A stretch of 64,000 nt of DNA. It comes from Magallana gigas (taxonomy: Eukaryota). A program made the position numbers. This document shows, piece after piece, positions 1-12,000 of the stretch; position 1 is the first letter of the stretch, and every line of letters starts with the position of its first letter. The stretch covers positions 39,122,001 through 39,186,000 of the forward strand of contig NC_088859.1 in NCBI RefSeq assembly GCF_963853765.1, in the 5' to 3' direction.

Positions 1-3000
1 AAATGAATTTTTAAAAATCTTTTTTAATAATACAATGAAAACATTTTTATCTCAAGAATTATTTCTTTCTTCTTTAAAAATAAATTTAATCAAATTCAAT
101 TTCAATTATTCATTTATTCATCGCATTTTTAAAAGTGAACATGCATAAATAAGCATAGTAATGCAAAGTAATGCCATGTAATGCCAGCATTACACTAGAT
201 TTTGGAAAGTAATTAATTACATTACCATTAATTGTAATGCTAATTTTGTGGCATTACACATTACTAGCATTACTTTGAAAACATGTAATGCATTGCAATG
301 CATTACCATTACATTTAGCATTACCTCAAGCCTGTTTGTTTTCAGTCATTGTACTTCATAGGGGTTCTTGTATGAAATGCCAATATTTAAATTTAAGTTT
401 CGCGTTTACATGTATTCGCGAAAGTTTCGCGTTTATTCGCGAAAGTAACGCGTTTATTTGCGAAAGTTTTGCGTTTATTCGCGAAAGTAACGCACTTATT
501 CGCAAAAGTTTCGCGTTATATCGCAAAAGTAACGCGTTTATCCGCGAAAGTTTCGCGTTATATTGCGAAAGTTTCACGGTTATTCGCAAAAATTACGCGT
601 TATATCGCGAAAGTTTCGCGTTTATTCGCAAAAAAACTAAAAAAAAATTTACCTACCAAAAATGAGCTAAATAGGATTTCGTAAATTGTCTCAAATAAAT
701 GCTTTAAAAAATCTCTTATTTAAAGGATTTTGGACCGTAATTTATTGCTTGCTATAATAGATAAGTTTTACTTCGTTACATACCAAAAATAATGATATAA
801 CAGAAAATTGCATAACCCGGTTATGTTATTTTTCTGAAATACTATAACTACTTCATACTCGCATACCCCCCCCCCCCCCCCCGAAAAAAGCTTCTTTTTT
901 TGTTTAGGTGTTTCGAAGAATCGGAAATTCTGTTTAAAAAAATACCGTGGAAAGGGTTTATATTTTAACATTAAACTACGCACAGGAATCGTTCAAAAAG
1001 TCCTTGCTTTTTGACGAATGCTGAATTTTCCACGTATTGATTTTCATCGACTGAAACTCTCCTCCCCTTTTCCATATTGCTGGAACCGCTTCTGCTATTC
1101 AAAAACTTCTGGCCCCGGGGCCACGAACGTCTAGAGTCGAACTCAACGGTCTTTTTCTACTCAAATCTGTGAATTTCAACGTTCGTGGCTCCGGGGCTAA
1201 ATCTGTGTTTCTTATCAGTTTCTTATCAGTTGTTAATTCAGAAAAATGGTGGTCTACAAAGACATAGCTTTAACCGTACTTATTCTTGCATTTACTGCAA
1301 CATGCATGGCAGGTGAGATGAAATCAATGAAGGATGAAATTGCGGTCATCAGAAATTTGCTACGGGAACAAAACGAGAGGTTGACGAGACTTGAGATGGA
1401 GAACAATGCCCTGAAGATCACTGTTTCCAAGTTGGAGAATGATAATTTACTGATGAAAGATAGGTTGGAGGATATTTCTGATGAAAACAAAGCCTTAAAA
1501 CTCGAAGTAAGCGATCGCAGACAAGTGACAACAGTACTAGAAGATTCAAATCATGCAAATATGGATAAGCAGGAAGAACCTAGTGGTGCATTCGGAGAAA
1601 ATGCGGTACACCGTAAGCTAAGCACATTTAGCAGACTATTTGTAAAAAAAAAATCATAATACATTGCGCTATAAAAATTCAAGTACATCTAGACGTTTAT
1701 AATAAAAGATGTCTACGTTTTAAAAAATGCATTGTTTCCTTTTATTTGGAGATACTTTTGATTTCAACTTACAACATGTATAAGTAGTTTTTTTTATTAG
1801 GAATTATACTTGTGCAGCGTTCTTCTTCTAACACATGATAACTTAGTTGTAAACTGGTTTTTACAACGTTTCATTTTAACTGCAAACTTTCTGTAGGACG
1901 ACTCCTTCTCCCCGACGCTGGGTCCCCCTCTACCACGCCCCTACCCGTGGAGCCAGTGGCTTTCTACGCTTACATGTCAAAATCCGAGCCCACCCCAAGC
2001 AATCATCATTCGCTCATCTTTGACATGTTGAAAACCAACCTTGGAAATGGCTACAACAAATTCAGTGGAACATTTGTTGCACCATCTGCAGGGGCTTATG
2101 TGTTCACCTGGACCATCAACACAAATCCCCATGGGGCTCATTGGATTAACCTAATGGTGAACAATGTAATTGTAGGTGGTACCGTTAGTGACACACAAGA
2201 TACTGCCGACTTTGACTCTGATTCCAACACAGCAGTGGTTGTCCTTGATCAGGGTGACAGTGTTAACCTGCGTACAACACTTCCAAGCGACCGTGCTGTT
2301 TTAGTTGCGGATGTGCATGCATTTACTAGTTTTGCCGGTTGGCGACTATAGTTGGAATATAACGACTATATTTGTAATATTTGTTATCTTAAAGGTATAC
2401 TTTTTTAATAAAAGACTACAAAAACTGTGTTTGTCGTAATCTTAATTTAATTTTGAAAGAAATGTAGTAGTAATGAAACAGCCAGAAGGCGATGACACCA
2501 AATTAACAGACAAAACATGATTTTCACTTTTTTTCTTTTAATGCATGCAAATGGTTGTGATTTATAAATAAAGTGGAAATTTTCTCTTGAAATAACGTTT
2601 TTTTTTAAGTTATGATGTAAAGATAATTTCAATTAAAAGTGCTAGCGTTAATTCTGCAAACAAGGTAATGTGTGAGAAATAGATATATCACAAATTCTTT
2701 ATTCTCTAAATATTTTGAATGTGTTCAAAAATTAAGTTAGGTTTACAAGGCCAAATAGTCACAGCGCATTACACTTTTTGGGCATCATGGAACAATTTTC
2801 TTCCTTCCTTCTTTTAACAGTCACATTCTCTTTGTTTGTCCTTTATTTCCTGATTTTCTATTAAACGACAACCGAATCTGTCAAAGGTTCACGGATATGT
2901 GATTTATAAAAATGCTCTTGAAGGTCCAATGACATTCTAATGTTTGTGGGACTCTCAAAATCGTAGACTAAAGGCAGAACTGAACAGTGTTGATTAAATC

Positions 3001-9000: not shown

Positions 9001-12000
9001 TTCATAAGACTCCTATCCAAATTTTTAACGAATAATCGTCTGTTAATTTTTCGTCAAATTTCTGATTTGTCCTTTCTCCTTGCAAGTCTAAAATATCATT
9101 CAAATGGTATCTGCGTCTTTCCCGGTAGTATAGACTTCTATATACATTGAATGTACTTTGCGTTAAAAAATTCATCATCTAAATTTAAGTCTGCTCAGTA
9201 CAGCGGAATGGTTTACTATAACATGCGCACCTGTTCACTCGTCCATGAATAAAGGGTGTGTTTGGTTAGGCTATTGGGTATGGTACTATTTGAATCATAA
9301 ATGAGCTAGATCCTTTTGTATTACAGCACAGTTGGATATGTGAATGGGTCAATGCTTCTTTGAGATTCAATGGGGGAATTTTATTTAGTAAGATAAATAA
9401 CTCGATAGTGTTGAATAGTTTAGAGAAAACATCCCCTACTCGGGCCTTCAGCCCTCGGAGGGAATGTTTTCTCTAAACTATTCAACACTATCTCGTTATT
9501 TACCCATTACATATTTACGCAATGGCTTTGGAAAGGATATTCGAGCTTTACATACCAAAAATTAAAGCATATAAGATTTTTGGGGGAATTGCGCAGTGTT
9601 CTTGAAATAACAGTACAAATTAAAGTCAAGATGATTTGTTAGTAATTCAAATTTATTTTGAGTATCAAAGAGTTCTTATCAGTAGAAAATATATAATGGC
9701 TTTGATCACATTTGGCAGATGTTGTAGCATCCATCGCACTAGATAATTAAAAGGCATGGCAGGTTAGATGTGGTGAAATCAATGATTATTAATCTGTTTT
9801 TTCTTTACTGATTCGCTTTATGCTATACTTGATAATATTTATAAAACATGTTAAACTTAATGCTACAACATACTATATACTAGTAATACGTTTATTTATT
9901 TTTATCTGCAATGGACTGATTATTCTACTTTACCAATCTCTGATCCATATTTAGAGGTTTCTTATCAGTTGAAAATACGAGAATTTAGTTACAAACATGA
10001 CTTGGACCATACTTACTCTAGTATTTGCTGCAATATGTTTATCTCTAAGCATGGCTGATGAGATGAAATTAATGAAAAATGAAATAGCGGTCATCAGAAA
10101 TTTGCTACGGGAACAAAACAAGAGGTTGACGAGACTTGAGATGGAGAACGATGCCCTGAAGATTACTGTCACTAAGTTGGAGAATGATAATTTACTGATG
10201 AAAGATAGGTTGGTAAACATTTCCGATGAAAACGAAGCTTTGAAACAAGAAGTATCCGACCTTAGAAGACACGTGACAACAATACAAGAATATTCTAATA
10301 TTGAAAATCTGGATAAGCAGGAGGAACCCAGTGGTGCCTTTAGAGAAACTGCTGTACATCGTAAGTGCAGTTATCAAACTACTTGTATTTTCTTTAAAAA
10401 AAAAAGTCAATTAAACAGACGCTTAAAATTAATAGATACATTTTTTAGAAAAACGTTTTATTTCCTTTAAATCATTCTAATATACGGTATACGGAAAAAC
10501 GTAATTTTAACTTACCACAAGTGGCATTATTTCATCAGGAACAATATTTGTGCAGCCTTCTTTTAACAATTAACACGATATAGACTAATGGTCAATTTGT
10601 TACTTTATATGTAACCGTTTCTATCCTAACTGTTGACTTTTTTGTAGGACGCCTCCTCCTTTCTGACGCTGGGTCCCCCTCCACAACGCCTCTACCCGTG
10701 GAGCCAGTGGCCTTTTACGCTTACATGTCAAAATCCGAGCCCACCCCAAGCAATCATCATGCGCTCGTCTTTGACGTGTTGAAAACAAACCTTGGGAATG
10801 GCTACAATAAGTACAGTGGAACATTCGTTGCTCCATATGCAGGGACATATGTCTTCACCTGGACAATCAATATAAATCCCCATGGGGCTCACTGGATCAA
10901 CTTGATGGTTAACGATGCCGTTGTTGGGGGTACACTTGCTGACACACAAGTTACAGGTGACTTTGACTCCGATTCTAACACAGCAGTGGTTGTCCTAAGT
11001 CAGGGAGACAGCGTCATCCTACGTACAACAAGTGCCAGTGACACAGCGAACATACATGTAGATTCACGTGCATTCACTACTTTTGCTGGATGGCGCCTTT
11101 AGTTGTATTGTCCATGATATAAGTCACAGGCAAACTTTCCCAATTAAAGACTTAAAAATATAAATCAGTTCTAATTTTATTCTTACAATTATTAAAGGCT
11201 AGGAAAAACGAACAATACAATATATTCTCACTCTTTTGCTCACAGAAATGAATGTGAAAGTTGATATAAATCATAGCCATTTTTAATAAAATATTAGCAT
11301 GGAGGTAGATTGATACACAACAGTGTGAAAATATCTACTACTGTACTATTCAGGCGAATATATTGTTTTAAGTCAAATGTTTGAAGTACATGTCTGTAAA
11401 AATAAGTTTTCATATTATGAAACGCTTTAATAGATTGATATTGTCATTTTGTAAACACAATGTTACATGTAAAATTACTTTGATGAAATTGTAAACAAAT
11501 AAATTGAAATATACATAAACAGAAAAAGGAGGGTGATTAAATAAACTCTATCATAGATCACCCTACATTATCACAGATTACATGTAATATATATTTGTAA
11601 TTACAAAATTACTGCCATACATCAAATAAAATACATTATGTAAAATGTTCTGTATTACATGCTCCTGCAAATAAATTTAAATATATCTGAATTGTAAATG
11701 GAAAAATAAAAATTGACCTGAAAAAACATTTGTACAATACATTACCACACAGATCACAGTAACAATACTCAGACTAGGCGAGTAAATTAAGTAATTCACT
11801 TACACAGTTTAGCATATCATCGTAGTTTATCACACTGATGTAAACACTTCTGCACAATATATGTCAATAAATAAAAATTACACAGCAGTCTATTCCATTT
11901 AACATAAACATTACAGAACACATTAATTTTTTCGCTCATCTACCAGTGCTATGGCTCTTACAAAAATCCCCACATGCTATAAATACCGTAAGAATATAGC

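What the first reader, a model, noticed from the sequence alone, without database searches (positions are those of the whole stretch)
1246..11102. Patchwork sequence exchange among C1qDC paralogs, with a sharp boundary inside the C1q domain
Hand counts: copies 1 and 2 differ at only 6 of about 246 nt in the first part of exon 2 (1897-2142 versus 4114-4359), but at about 52 of the last 210 nt, switching abruptly after GGGGCTCAT. In exon 1, copy 1 pairs with copy 4 (about 6 differences in about 127 nt of coiled-coil sequence), while copy 2 pairs with pseudogene copy 3. The exon-2 end and 3' flank pair copy 2 with copy 4. Inference: gene conversion or unequal crossover homogenises scaffold segments while the C-terminal half of the globular head, the likely ligand-contacting part, diversifies.
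Basis: partly seen in the sequence, partly recalled or inferred. Interest (0 to 1): 0.65.

Follow-up and report, generated by a model that had tools for sequence, protein, structure and literature searches.

The report
Gene conversion among oyster C1q paralogs
Four neighbouring immune-lectin (C1q-domain) genes of the Pacific oyster have swapped two short stretches of DNA with each other, a common process in gene clusters, so trees and selection tests on this family need to allow for it.

Summary
The window is Pacific oyster (Magallana gigas). It carries four tandem, same-strand, two-exon C1qDC genes (signal peptide, coiled coil, gC1q head); copy 3 is a pseudogene.

Copy 1 is the most divergent copy in its flanks, intron and exon-2 end, but it carries two short patches:
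- c1 1344-1464 is copy-4-like: 6/121 differences, against 26/121 to copy 2.
- c1 1885-2142 is copy-2-like: 6/258 differences. It includes the last 12 intron bases and ends within 1-2 nt after GGGGCTCAT.

Both patches pass label-shuffle scans (p<=0.001). Quartet trees conflict (1000/1000 against 984/1000 bootstraps). Synonymous divergence between copies 1 and 2 jumps from 0.089 to 1.06 across the boundary.

The best explanation is interlocus gene conversion, not a single unequal crossover and not purifying selection. The "diversifying C-terminal half" is not shown: dN/dS there is 0.16-0.37, and at most 0.83 in the two most variable loops. That half simply keeps the old background divergence.

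The boundary lies inside a predicted beta-strand, at the point where family-wide identity drops, which suggests identity-dependent termination of the tract.

This is an ordinary mechanism. I found no report of it for bivalve C1qDC genes in my searches. No read-level check was possible, and copy 1 is known only from this assembly.

The parts
1246..1612 (+). Copy 1 (c1) exon 1: signal-peptide-like N-terminus, coiled coil and linker. It ends in phase 1 before GTAAGC.
   Evidence: The translation from M21 equals the P0011 'C1q-related factor-like [Magallana gigas]' part. AF2 predicts one long helix over residues 2-109. Hydrophobic residues fall in heptad registers.
1897..2351 (+). Copy 1 exon 2: linker plus gC1q domain, stop TAG at 2349-2351.
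   Evidence: Pfam C1q PF00386, 69.8 bits against a cut-off of 23.7. 100% identical to the P0011 part. AF2 pLDDT 86.9. Best Foldseek matches are Caprin-2, C1QL and C1q heads.
3503..3866 (+). Copy 2 (c2) exon 1.
4114..4568 (+). Copy 2 exon 2 (gC1q), stop TAG at 4566-4568.
   Evidence: Pfam C1q 71.7 bits.
7714..8113 (+). Copy 3 (c3) pseudogene, exon-1 remnant. Relative to c2 and c4 it carries indels of -2, +20, +1, +18 ((CT)n), -1, -2 and +1, and in-frame stops in every frame.
8391..8570 (+). Copy 3 exon-2 remnant. It carries indels of -6 and +2 and an internal deletion, and homology ends near 8570, so the whole C-terminal half of the C1q domain is missing.
   Evidence: Palindromic 32-nt repeats follow at 8643-8735.
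9997..10360 (+). Copy 4 (c4) exon 1.
   Evidence: Identical to the P0003 (XP_034310969.2, 'complement C1q-like protein 3 [Magallana gigas]') part.
10648..11102 (+). Copy 4 exon 2 (gC1q).
   Evidence: Pfam C1q 72.4 bits; identical to the P0003 part.
1344..1464 (+). Conversion tract A in c1 (coiled coil). It matches c4 10089-10209 with 6/121 differences, against 26/121 to c2.
   Evidence: p<=0.001; 16 of 18 informative sites give c1c4|c2c3; 1000/1000 bootstraps. dS c1-c4 is 0.19, against 0.73 (c1-c2) and 0.70 (c2-c4).
10089..10209 (+). Partner of tract A in c4.
1885..2142 (+). Conversion tract B in c1: the last 12 nt of the intron plus exon-2 nt 1-246. It matches c2 4102-4359 with 6/258 differences, against 31/258 to c4.
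   Evidence: p<=0.001; 984/1000 bootstraps for c1c2|c3c4. dS c1-c2 is 0.089.
4102..4359 (+). Partner of tract B in c2.
2141..2144 (+). Right-hand breakpoint of tract B, resolved to 1-2 nt. It falls between codons 81 and 82 of exon 2 (GAH|W/F), inside predicted beta-strand 79-87, and just after the 10-nt palindrome CCCCATGGGG (2127-2136).
2143..2351 (+). Unconverted C-terminal half of the c1 gC1q domain (strands E-H with the E-F and G-H loops), at background divergence.
   Evidence: 52/209 differences to c2 and 55/209 to c4. dS 1.06 and 1.09, dN/dS 0.16-0.17.
1219..1232 (+). Conserved 14-mer TTTCTTATCAGTTG, 14-33 nt upstream of each copy's ATG. It also occurs at 3462, 7667 and 9958, with a 1-mismatch tandem copy at 1208. 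It marks the 5' limit of c1's homology to the other copies.
   Evidence: 5 matches against 0.08 expected.

Best explanation
The locus is a tandem array of four secreted coiled-coil C1q-domain lectin-like genes (sC1q-like type II C1qDC) in the Pacific oyster. Copy 1 is the oldest, most divergent member.

Interlocus (non-allelic) gene conversion between misaligned copies overwrote two short internal stretches. A 121-nt piece of the coiled coil was exchanged with the copy-4 lineage. A 258-nt piece, running from 12 nt inside the intron through the first 246 nt of exon 2, was exchanged with the copy-2 lineage.

Shown: the patches, their limits, their statistical support, the effect on synonymous sites, and the conflicting segment trees.

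Inferred:
- The tracts stop where pre-existing identity between the copies falls. On the left this is the divergent, indel-rich intron, including a c2-specific deletion. On the right it is the more variable second half of the domain. Heteroduplex extension needs high identity, so conserved modules are kept alike while already diverged modules escape.
- For tract B, copy 2 was probably the donor and copy 1 the acceptor. The shared sequence stands at the c2-c4 background distance from c4 (dS 0.33-0.45), not at the c1-c4 background distance (1.09).
For:
- Label-shuffle interval scans give p<=0.001 for each tract. A 3SEQ-style test gives p=0.00035-0.0008. Site-pattern heterogeneity gives chi2=73.2, p=9e-14.
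- Synonymous differences between c1 and c2 are 5 of 59.5 sites in exon-2 codons 1-81 and 28 of 49.3 in codons 82-150 (dS 0.089 against 1.06; Fisher p=4e-8). In codons 1-81 c1-c4 and c2-c4 have dS 0.45 and 0.33, so synonymous sites there are free to change.
- Quartet trees conflict. Coil A gives c1c4|c2c3 at 16/18 informative sites and 1000/1000 bootstraps. The exon-2 start gives c1c2|c3c4 at 7/8 sites and 984/1000 bootstraps. Fisher p=7.5e-5.
- Both tracts are flanked on both sides by c1-specific sequence. In the intron c1-c2 differ at 85/229 and c1-c4 at 104/257, against c2-c4 at 65/237. The 5' and 3' flanks of c1 cannot be aligned to the others.
- Tract B includes 12 intron bases (0/12 differences c1-c2, 3/12 to c4). 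Genomic DNA, not cDNA, was therefore the template.
- Proteins from other records agree on the types. c1 differs from five c2-type proteins at 1-4/81 in exon-2 residues 1-81 and from four c4-type proteins at 6-8/81. In coil A it differs at 14-18/51 from c2-type proteins and at 4-9/51 from the four c4-type proteins.
- GC3 is higher in the two segments that hold the tracts (coil A plus exon 2a: 66-72 of 125-127 codons) than in the other two (33-38 of 113-116) in all three copies, p=6e-5 to 3e-3. This fits GC-biased conversion acting repeatedly, but it is only suggestive.
Against: - No reads or second assembly of this haplotype could be examined. Copy 1's protein (P0011) is in the database only from this assembly, and no independent c1-type sequence turned up in 3 of 3 protein searches.
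- Only three intact copies with DNA are available, so the direction and number of events rest on few sites.
- Within tract B, 5 of the 6 differences are c1-specific and 0 are c2-specific. This is uneven for a simple c2-to-c1 event, though not significant.
- The direction of tract A is undetermined: c2-c4 dS of 0.70 lies between the two expectations.
- A single-breakpoint MaxChi test for c1-c2 was not significant (p=0.094), as expected for an internal two-ended tract.
- The intron alignment is noisy.
- The GC3 contrast could have other causes, and the three copies are not independent samples.
Confidence: 0.8

Rival explanations
1. Unequal crossover between misaligned copies produced chimeric genes. 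The mosaic would be a record of crossover junctions, not of non-crossover conversion.
For: The array itself (four tandem same-strand copies, with c2, c3 and c4 sharing 5' and 3' flanks) is what unequal crossing-over produces. Gerdol et al. 2019 propose that mechanism for C1qDC expansion in C. virginica (PMC6835236, passages seen).
Against: A single crossover leaves everything on one side of the junction from one parent. Here both patches (121 and 258 nt) are internal. c1-specific intron lies between them, and c1-specific sequence lies outside them. Four closely spaced crossovers would be needed.
Confidence: 0.08
2. Assembly or polishing artefact: reads from one paralog were used to correct another, or haplotypes were spliced, creating false near-identical stretches.
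For: Oyster genomes are highly heterozygous and rich in paralogs (recalled). c1 is known only from this assembly. Records of the 'same' genes from other assemblies differ a lot: P0010 against c4 differs at 14/69 in the second half of the domain.
Against: - The patches are not identical. They carry 6 differences each, spread along the tract.
- They are far shorter than long reads, and they are flanked by sequence 25-40% divergent, where short reads would not mis-map.
- Tract B leaves c1's own intron sequence intact right up to 12 nt from the exon, without c2's deletion.
- The c2-type and c4-type residues are reproduced in independent assemblies, in C. angulata and in transcript contigs.
Confidence: 0.05
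3. No exchange took place. The first half of exon 2 and coil A are simply under much stronger purifying selection, or mutate more slowly, than the rest.
For: The first half of the C1q domain is more conserved in every comparison (c1-c4 28/246 against 55/209; c2-c4 23/246 against 38/209). dN is about four times lower there (0.04 against 0.14-0.19).
Against: Constraint cannot change which copies are closest. c1-c2 dS is 0.089 where c1-c4 is 0.45, and 1.06 where c2-c4 is 0.42. In coil A c1-c4 dS is 0.19 while c2-c4 is 0.70. The shuffles that keep variable-site positions fixed still give p<=0.001, and the quartet trees conflict.
Confidence: 0.03
4. One reading: selection for new ligand specificities actively drives diversification of the C-terminal half and removes conversions that enter it. 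The boundary would then be set by selection, not by mechanics.
For: - Amino-acid differences among c1, c2 and c4 concentrate in residues 82-144 (23 of 31 variable positions). Many fall in the predicted E-F (100-105) and G-H (127-143) loops.
- dN/dS in those loops reaches 0.83 for c2-c4.
- Gerdol et al. [quoted passage not shown]
- Records of the c4 type from other sources differ from c4 mostly there (10-14/69 against 2-3/81).
Against: - No comparison reaches dN/dS > 1: 0.16-0.37 for the half and 0.26-0.83 for the loops.
- The divergence of the half matches the neutral background (dS 0.42-1.09).
- The breakpoint lies inside a beta-strand, not at a structural module edge.
- Other records switch type at other positions, for example P0010 between residues 66 and 82 and again near 96-105, so the boundary is not a fixed one.
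- Selection scans that ignore recombination can give false positives (established knowledge, recalled).
Confidence: 0.3

Closest known systems
Tandem clusters of sC1q-like type II C1qDC genes in oysters (Gerdol et al. 2019, Mar Drugs 17:583, PMC6835236; passages read)
   Same: Same gene type and architecture: two exons, signal peptide plus coiled coil, then gC1q. [quoted passage not shown]
   Different: That paper explains the family by tandem duplication through unequal crossing-over followed by episodic positive selection. The words 'conversion' and 'recombination' occur 0 times in its main text. Here the documented process is short-tract exchange between existing copies, in M. gigas, with no dN/dS > 1. 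I could not see its supplements.
Interlocus (ectopic) gene conversion in tandem multigene families, with identity-dependent tracts and 'escape' of diverged segments (for example MHC, globins, HSP70; the models of Walsh 1987 and Teshima & Innan 2004 are recalled, not read here). For M. gigas, a 2024 HSP70 survey mentions conversion (PMC11268181, passages).
   Same: Short internal patches of a few hundred bp or less, reduced synonymous divergence, conflicting segment trees, and tracts confined to the most similar parts of the paralogs.
   Different: There is nothing mechanistically different. The gene family (bivalve C1qDC) and the precise tracts are new in my searches. Mismatch-limited termination was not tested directly.
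Vertebrate gC1q heads: Caprin-2, C1QL1-3, cerebellins, complement C1q A/B/C
   Same: Same fold. Pfam C1q scores 69.8-72.4 bits. Foldseek TM-scores normalised to the target are 0.82-0.88 for the top 9 matches (ranks 1-9) (4oum, 4oul, 4ous, 5ybz, 4qpy, 4qq2) and 0.85 for 2wnv_B. phmmer E-values go down to 5e-23.
   Different: Only 22-32% identity. The stalk is a coiled coil, not collagen (0 G-X-Y triplet runs). The names carried by the oyster records ('caprin-2', 'C1q-like protein 3', 'C1q-related factor-like') reflect domain likeness, not orthology.

Membership tests
C1q-domain-containing protein, sC1q-like type II (secreted, coiled coil + gC1q) | A gC1q domain recognised above the curated threshold | tested here: met
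   PF00386 scores 69.8, 71.7 and 72.4 bits for c1, c2 and c4 exon 2, against a cut-off of 23.7.
C1q-domain-containing protein, sC1q-like type II (secreted, coiled coil + gC1q) | Jelly-roll beta-sandwich fold like solved gC1q heads | tested here: met
   AF2 model with pLDDT 86.9 and nine strands. Foldseek probability 1.00 and target-normalised TM 0.82-0.88 for ranks 1-9 (Caprin-2, C1QL3, C1QL2, C1QL1) and 0.85 for 2wnv_B (C1q).
C1q-domain-containing protein, sC1q-like type II (secreted, coiled coil + gC1q) | Coiled-coil region between the signal peptide and the head, with no collagen repeats | tested here: met
   AF2 predicts a single helix over residues 2-109. LIVMF residues concentrate in two heptad registers 3 apart (7/11 and 9/11 in c1; 8/12 and 10/11 in c2 and c4), and there are 0 G-X-Y runs. 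No dedicated coiled-coil predictor was run. Pfam shows only sub-threshold coiled-coil family hits.
C1q-domain-containing protein, sC1q-like type II (secreted, coiled coil + gC1q) | N-terminal signal peptide | tested here: inconclusive
   A hydrophobic N-terminal stretch is present (mean Kyte-Doolittle 2.5-2.7 over 12 residues), but no signal-peptide predictor is available. In c1 the ancestral ATG is ATA (1264-1266), and the ORF starts at an upstream ATG (1246). The RefSeq model P0011 starts at M21 and would lack the hydrophobic stretch.
Interlocus gene-conversion tract | An internal segment far more similar between two paralogs than the sequence on both of its sides, beyond site-rate effects | tested here: met
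   Tract A 6/121 and tract B 6/258. Label-shuffle scans give p<=0.001 each.
Interlocus gene-conversion tract | The similarity holds at synonymous and non-coding sites | tested here: met
   dS 0.089 against 1.06 (c1-c2), and 0.19 against 0.82 (coil B) to 1.09 (exon 2b) (c1-c4). The 12 intron bases in tract B show 0/12 differences.
Interlocus gene-conversion tract | Conflicting, well-supported trees for adjacent segments | tested here: met
   c1c4|c2c3 in 1000/1000 bootstraps, against c1c2|c3c4 in 984/1000. Informative sites are 16/18 and 7/8.
Interlocus gene-conversion tract | The patches are present in the real chromosome (reads, a second assembly, or segregating haplotypes) | not testable with these tools
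   No oyster DNA collection or reads were available. Protein searches found no independent c1-type record.
Chimeric gene from a single unequal crossover | One junction, with all sequence on each side coming from one parent | tested here: not met
   There are two internal patches with four junctions, and c1-specific sequence lies between and outside them.
Segment under positive (diversifying) selection | dN/dS > 1 for the segment or its loops | tested here: not met
   Exon-2 codons 82-150 give 0.16, 0.17 and 0.37. The E-F plus G-H loops give 0.26, 0.31 and 0.83. Site-level tests are impossible with three sequences.

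The most novel reading that the evidence does not exclude
Oyster C1qDC clusters may run a standing 'patchwork' system. Recurrent, identity-dependent and GC-biased conversion would keep the trimerisation scaffold (coiled coil A and the first half of the head) interchangeable among paralogs. It would also shuffle short blocks, including blocks of the apical E-F and G-H loops, among copies and haplotypes. Each individual would then carry a different combinatorial set of recognition heads.

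Hints for this reading:
- GC3 is raised in the two converted segments in all three copies.
- Records of the same genes from other assemblies are themselves mosaics of the c1, c2 and c4 types. For example P0010 is c4-type at residues 38-66, c2-type at 82 and uniquely c1-type at 103.
- 'Alleles' differ by up to 14/69 residues in the second half of the head.
Probability: 0.2. Interest if true: 0.6.

Novelty: new member of a known kind. Interest (0 to 1): 0.4.

Why it matters
C1qDC genes are the largest immune-type family in oysters: 321-337 genes in M. gigas and 476 in C. virginica (PMC4346834 and PMC6835236, passages). Their expansion has been read as duplication plus positive selection.

If short conversion tracts are common, three things follow. 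Gene trees of the family are mosaics. Duplication ages taken from sequence identity are too young wherever tracts lie. Selection tests that assume one tree per alignment need recombination-aware reanalysis.

The locus also gives a clean, small example with breakpoints resolved to 1-2 nt. It could be used to measure tract length and identity dependence of ectopic conversion in a bivalve.

Tried and rejected
- Single-breakpoint MaxChi was not significant for c1-c2 (p=0.094) and was significant for c1-c4 (p=0.0005). I replaced it with a two-ended interval scan, because the tracts are internal.
I rewrote it in vectorised form.
- The c2-c4 scan found no tract (p=0.16), and the longest-run test for c2-c4 gave p=0.73. 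The c2-c4 likeness is therefore treated as background.
- In coil B (c1 1469-1612), c1-c2 dS (0.36) is lower than c1-c4 (0.82). This hints at an older exchange, but the quartets are unresolved (588, 378 and 34 of 1000), so I make no claim.
- A cDNA-mediated conversion is rejected, because tract B includes intron bases and the end of exon 1 is not converted.
- A recent whole-gene duplication of c1 and c2 is rejected, because only 258 nt are alike.
- I looked for an independent copy-1 sequence with 3 of 3 protein searches. None was found; P0034 is an unspliced c4-type read-through.
- Spliced proteins were never joined from the window. The spliced forms used were the database records P0011 and P0003.
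- Not used: genome contigs (bacteria and archaea only, so useless for an oyster), complex prediction (no binding claim is made), Rfam, and the protein-atlas search.
- The viral and metagenome contig collections and paper supplements were closed. The supplements of PMC6835236 may list whether clusters were screened for recombination.
- Top-versus-bottom placement of the variable loops rests on jelly-roll topology recalled from solved gC1q heads, not on coordinates, which the tools do not return.
- Literature: three searches ('C1qDC' + 'gene conversion'; 'gene conversion' + bivalve + immune + paralogs; 'gene conversion' + Crassostrea + C1q) listed no paper on conversion among bivalve C1qDC genes. 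I saw listings only for those hits.

Full report
**What the window is.** The 64-kb window has no N and about 31-39% G+C in 2-kb windows. The translation of copy 4's two exons is identical to the corresponding parts of XP_034310969.2, 'complement C1q-like protein 3 [Magallana gigas]' (P0003). The translation of copy 1 is identical to 'C1q-related factor-like [Magallana gigas]' (P0011, which starts at Met21). Both records sit on a 53.67-Mb sequence. The window is therefore Pacific oyster, not human.

**Anatomy.** tblastn with the exon translations finds exactly four copies, all on the + strand, and none elsewhere in the window.
- c1: exon 1 1246-1612, exon 2 1897-2351.
- c2: exon 1 3503-3866, exon 2 4114-4568.
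- c3: exon-1 remnant 7714-~8113, exon-2 remnant 8391-~8570.
- c4: exon 1 9997-10360, exon 2 10648-11102.

Each intact gene has a GT...AG intron in phase 1.

Exon 2 carries a C1q domain: PF00386 scores 69.8-72.4 bits against a cut-off of 23.7. Its AF2 model has pLDDT 86.9. The top 9 matches, Caprin-2 and C1QL heads, have target-normalised TM 0.82-0.88; C1q (2wnv_B) follows at 0.85.

Exon 1 encodes a hydrophobic N-terminus and a long helix with heptad periodicity, and has no collagen repeats. This is the 'sC1q-like type II' architecture that Gerdol et al. 2019 describe as the commonest in oysters (PMC6835236, passages).

c3 is a pseudogene. Its exon 1 has frameshifting indels (-2, +20, +1, -1, -2, +1), an 18-nt (CT)n expansion, and stops in all frames. 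Its exon 2 has further indels and loses homology near 8570.

**The observation.**
- c1 and c2 differ at 6/246 of the first exon-2 positions and at 52/209 of the rest. The switch falls between exon-2 nt 245 and 247, right after GGGGCTCAT at 2133-2141.
- In exon 1, c1 and c4 differ at 6/121 over 1344-1464 (7/127 over 1338-1464). Over 1344-1464 c1-c2 differ at 26/121 and c2-c4 at 30/121.
- At the exon-2 end, c2-c4 (38/209) are closer than c1-c2 (52/209) or c1-c4 (55/209). The c2-c4 homology continues about 300 nt past the stop, whereas c1's ends at the stop.
- 'c2 pairs with c3' is true only as the other half of the quartet split c1c4|c2c3 (16 of 18 informative sites). The raw c2-c3 distance there, 26/120, is not small.

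**Is it more than chance or rate variation?** The second half of the domain is more variable in all pairs, so the naive Fisher test (p=1.4e-13) overstates the case. Tests that hold variable-site positions fixed and shuffle only which copy is the odd one out remain decisive.
- The best c1-c2 interval is c1 1886-2141: 6/31 variable sites discordant inside, 208/273 outside, p<=0.001.
- The best c1-c4 interval is 1344-1464: 6/31 against 225/273, p<=0.001.
- c2-c4 shows none, p=0.16 (1000 shuffles each).
- A 3SEQ-style walk with c1 as a mosaic of c2 and c4 gives p=0.0008 and 0.00035.
- The three site patterns are distributed differently among four exonic segments: 7, 28, 2; then 15, 6, 14; then 22, 0, 5; then 16, 13, 30. 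This gives chi2=73.2 and p=9e-14.
- With c3 added, four-point quartet trees give c1c4|c2c3 in 1000/1000 bootstraps for coil A, and c1c2|c3c4 in 984/1000 for the start of exon 2. The signal-peptide region, coil B and the intron are unresolved.

**Selection or exchange?** Synonymous sites settle this.
- c1-c2 dS is 0.089 (5 differences over 59.5 sites) in exon-2 codons 1-81, and 1.06 (28 over 49.3) in codons 82-150. Fisher p=4e-8.
- In codons 1-81, c1-c4 and c2-c4 have dS 0.45 and 0.33, so those sites are not frozen.
- In coil A, c1-c4 dS is 0.19, against 0.73 for c1-c2 and 0.70 for c2-c4.
- dN/dS is below 1 everywhere informative: 0.06-0.12 in the first half of exon 2 and 0.16-0.37 in the second half.
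- Within the second half, dN/dS is 0.08-0.17 in its strands, and 0.26, 0.31 and 0.83 in the E-F plus G-H loops.

The contrast across the boundary is therefore produced by homogenisation of the first half. The second half merely retains the old background divergence under weaker constraint. Diversifying selection is not shown, and it cannot be tested site by site with three sequences.

**Which process?** The background relationship makes c1 the outlier.
- Its intron differs from c2 at 85/229 and from c4 at 104/257, against 65/237 for c2-c4.
- Its homology to the other copies begins only at the conserved 14-mer at 1219 and ends at the stop codon, while c2, c3 and c4 share upstream and downstream blocks.

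Against that background c1 carries two short internal patches from two different partners, separated by its own intron. That is the signature of non-crossover gene conversion. A single unequal crossover cannot produce it.

Tract B includes the last 12 intron bases (0/12 differences to c2, 3/12 to c4) but not c2's upstream intron deletion. The end of exon 1 is not converted. The template was therefore genomic DNA.

For tract B the shared sequence lies at the c2-c4 background distance from c4 (dS 0.33-0.45, against 1.09 for the c1-c4 background). This points to c2 as donor. The direction of tract A is undetermined.

**The boundary.** Residue 81/82 of the exon-2 translation (GAH|W/F) lies inside predicted strand 79-87, just after the 77-78 turn. 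It is therefore not a structural module edge.

It does coincide with the place where all pairs become more divergent: c2-c4 goes from 9.3% to 18.2% and c1-c4 from 11.4% to 26.3%. The left end coincides with the divergent, indel-rich intron.

My inference is that the tracts are limited by sequence identity. It rests on established models of identity-dependent conversion, which I recall and did not read here. A 10-nt palindrome, CCCCATGGGG (2127-2136), sits just before the right breakpoint. With a single case this is an anecdote.

**Wider hints.**
- GC3 is 52-57% in coil A plus the first half of exon 2, and 29-33% in coil B plus the second half, in all three copies (p=6e-5 to 3e-3). This would fit long-term GC-biased conversion of those segments, but it has other possible causes.
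- Protein records from other assemblies, from C. angulata and from transcript contigs reproduce the c2 and c4 types. They place c1 with c4-type proteins in coil A (4-9/51 for the four c4-type proteins, against 14-18/51 for c2-type) and with c2-type proteins in the first half of exon 2 (1-4/81, against 6-8/81).
- These records are themselves mosaics. XP_034310969.1 (P0010) is the earlier version of the accession that now equals c4. It differs from c4 at 2/81 residues in the first half of exon 2 and at 14/69 in the second, and it mixes c4-, c2- and c1-type residues.
- The window's c2 differs from XP_011419352.2 (P0008) mainly in coil B (11/49).

These comparisons are at protein level and are descriptive only.

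**Limits.**
- I had no oyster DNA beyond the window, and no reads.
- Copy 1 has no independent record.
- The assignment of the E-F and G-H loops to the apex of the head rests on recalled gC1q topology.

**Comparison with what is known.** Interlocus conversion in tandem families is textbook. A survey of M. gigas HSP70 genes invokes it (PMC11268181, passages). The two key oyster C1qDC and immune-expansion papers do not mention conversion or recombination in their main text (0 occurrences each). Three literature searches listed no paper on it for bivalve C1qDC.

**Verdict.** This is a real, well-supported but ordinary mechanism, newly documented for this family. Interest is moderate.

Noticed in passing
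window 1246-1308: In c1 the start codon shared by c2, c3 and c4 is ATA (1264-1266), and 12 nt of the signal-peptide region are deleted. The ORF opens at an upstream in-frame ATG (1246). The RefSeq model P0011 starts at Met21 (1306) and would lack the hydrophobic N-terminus. Whether c1 is still secreted is open.
   Followed up: partly
window 1208-1232, 3462-3475, 7667-7680, 9958-9971: The 14-mer TTTCTTATCAGTTG lies 14-33 nt upstream of each copy's ATG and is tandemly doubled in c1. There are 5 matches against 0.08 expected. It may be a core-promoter, TSS or 5'UTR element of this gene group.
   Followed up: partly
window 1315-1467, 1899-2141 and the homologous parts of c2 and c4: Third-codon G+C is about 52-57% in the two segments that hold the conversion tracts, against 29-33% in the neighbouring coding segments and 27% in the intron, in all three intact copies. 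This looks like a GC-biased-conversion footprint but is unproven.
   Followed up: partly
window 2127-2136: A perfect 10-nt palindrome, CCCCATGGGG, is conserved in c1, c2 and c4. It lies immediately before the right-hand breakpoint of the c1-c2 tract.
   Followed up: no
window 1112-1197: A G+C-rich inverted repeat (19-nt arms, 95% complementary, 48 nt apart) lies just upstream of c1, where homology to the other copies' upstream regions is lost. It may be a small inserted element.
   Followed up: no
window 8570-9560: The truncated c3 exon 2 is followed by palindromic 32-nt repeats (8643-8735), and further on by a hairpin with 52-nt arms (9394-9502, 88% complementary). These are probably small foldback or MITE-like insertions that replaced the 3' half of c3. 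A 123-aa ORF on the minus strand (8630-9001) has no Pfam match.
   Followed up: partly
window 413-633: A tandem array of a 21-nt unit (10.5 copies, 84-nt higher-order period) rich in TTCGCG/CGCGAA lies upstream of the C1q array.
   Followed up: no
window 13850-14560 (-) and 62734-63294 (+): The neighbouring ORFs are a class-I SAM methyltransferase domain (Methyltransf_11, 60.9 bits) and the start of a sulfotransferase domain (26.8 bits). There are no tRNA genes in the window.
   Followed up: no
protein records P0003 vs P0010, c2 vs P0008 (no window coordinates): Successive versions of the same RefSeq accession (XP_034310969.1 and .2) encode proteins that differ at 14/69 residues in the second half of the C1q head. 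The window's c2 differs from XP_011419352.2 at 11/49 residues of coil B. The differences between individuals at this array are very large and segmental.
   Followed up: partly
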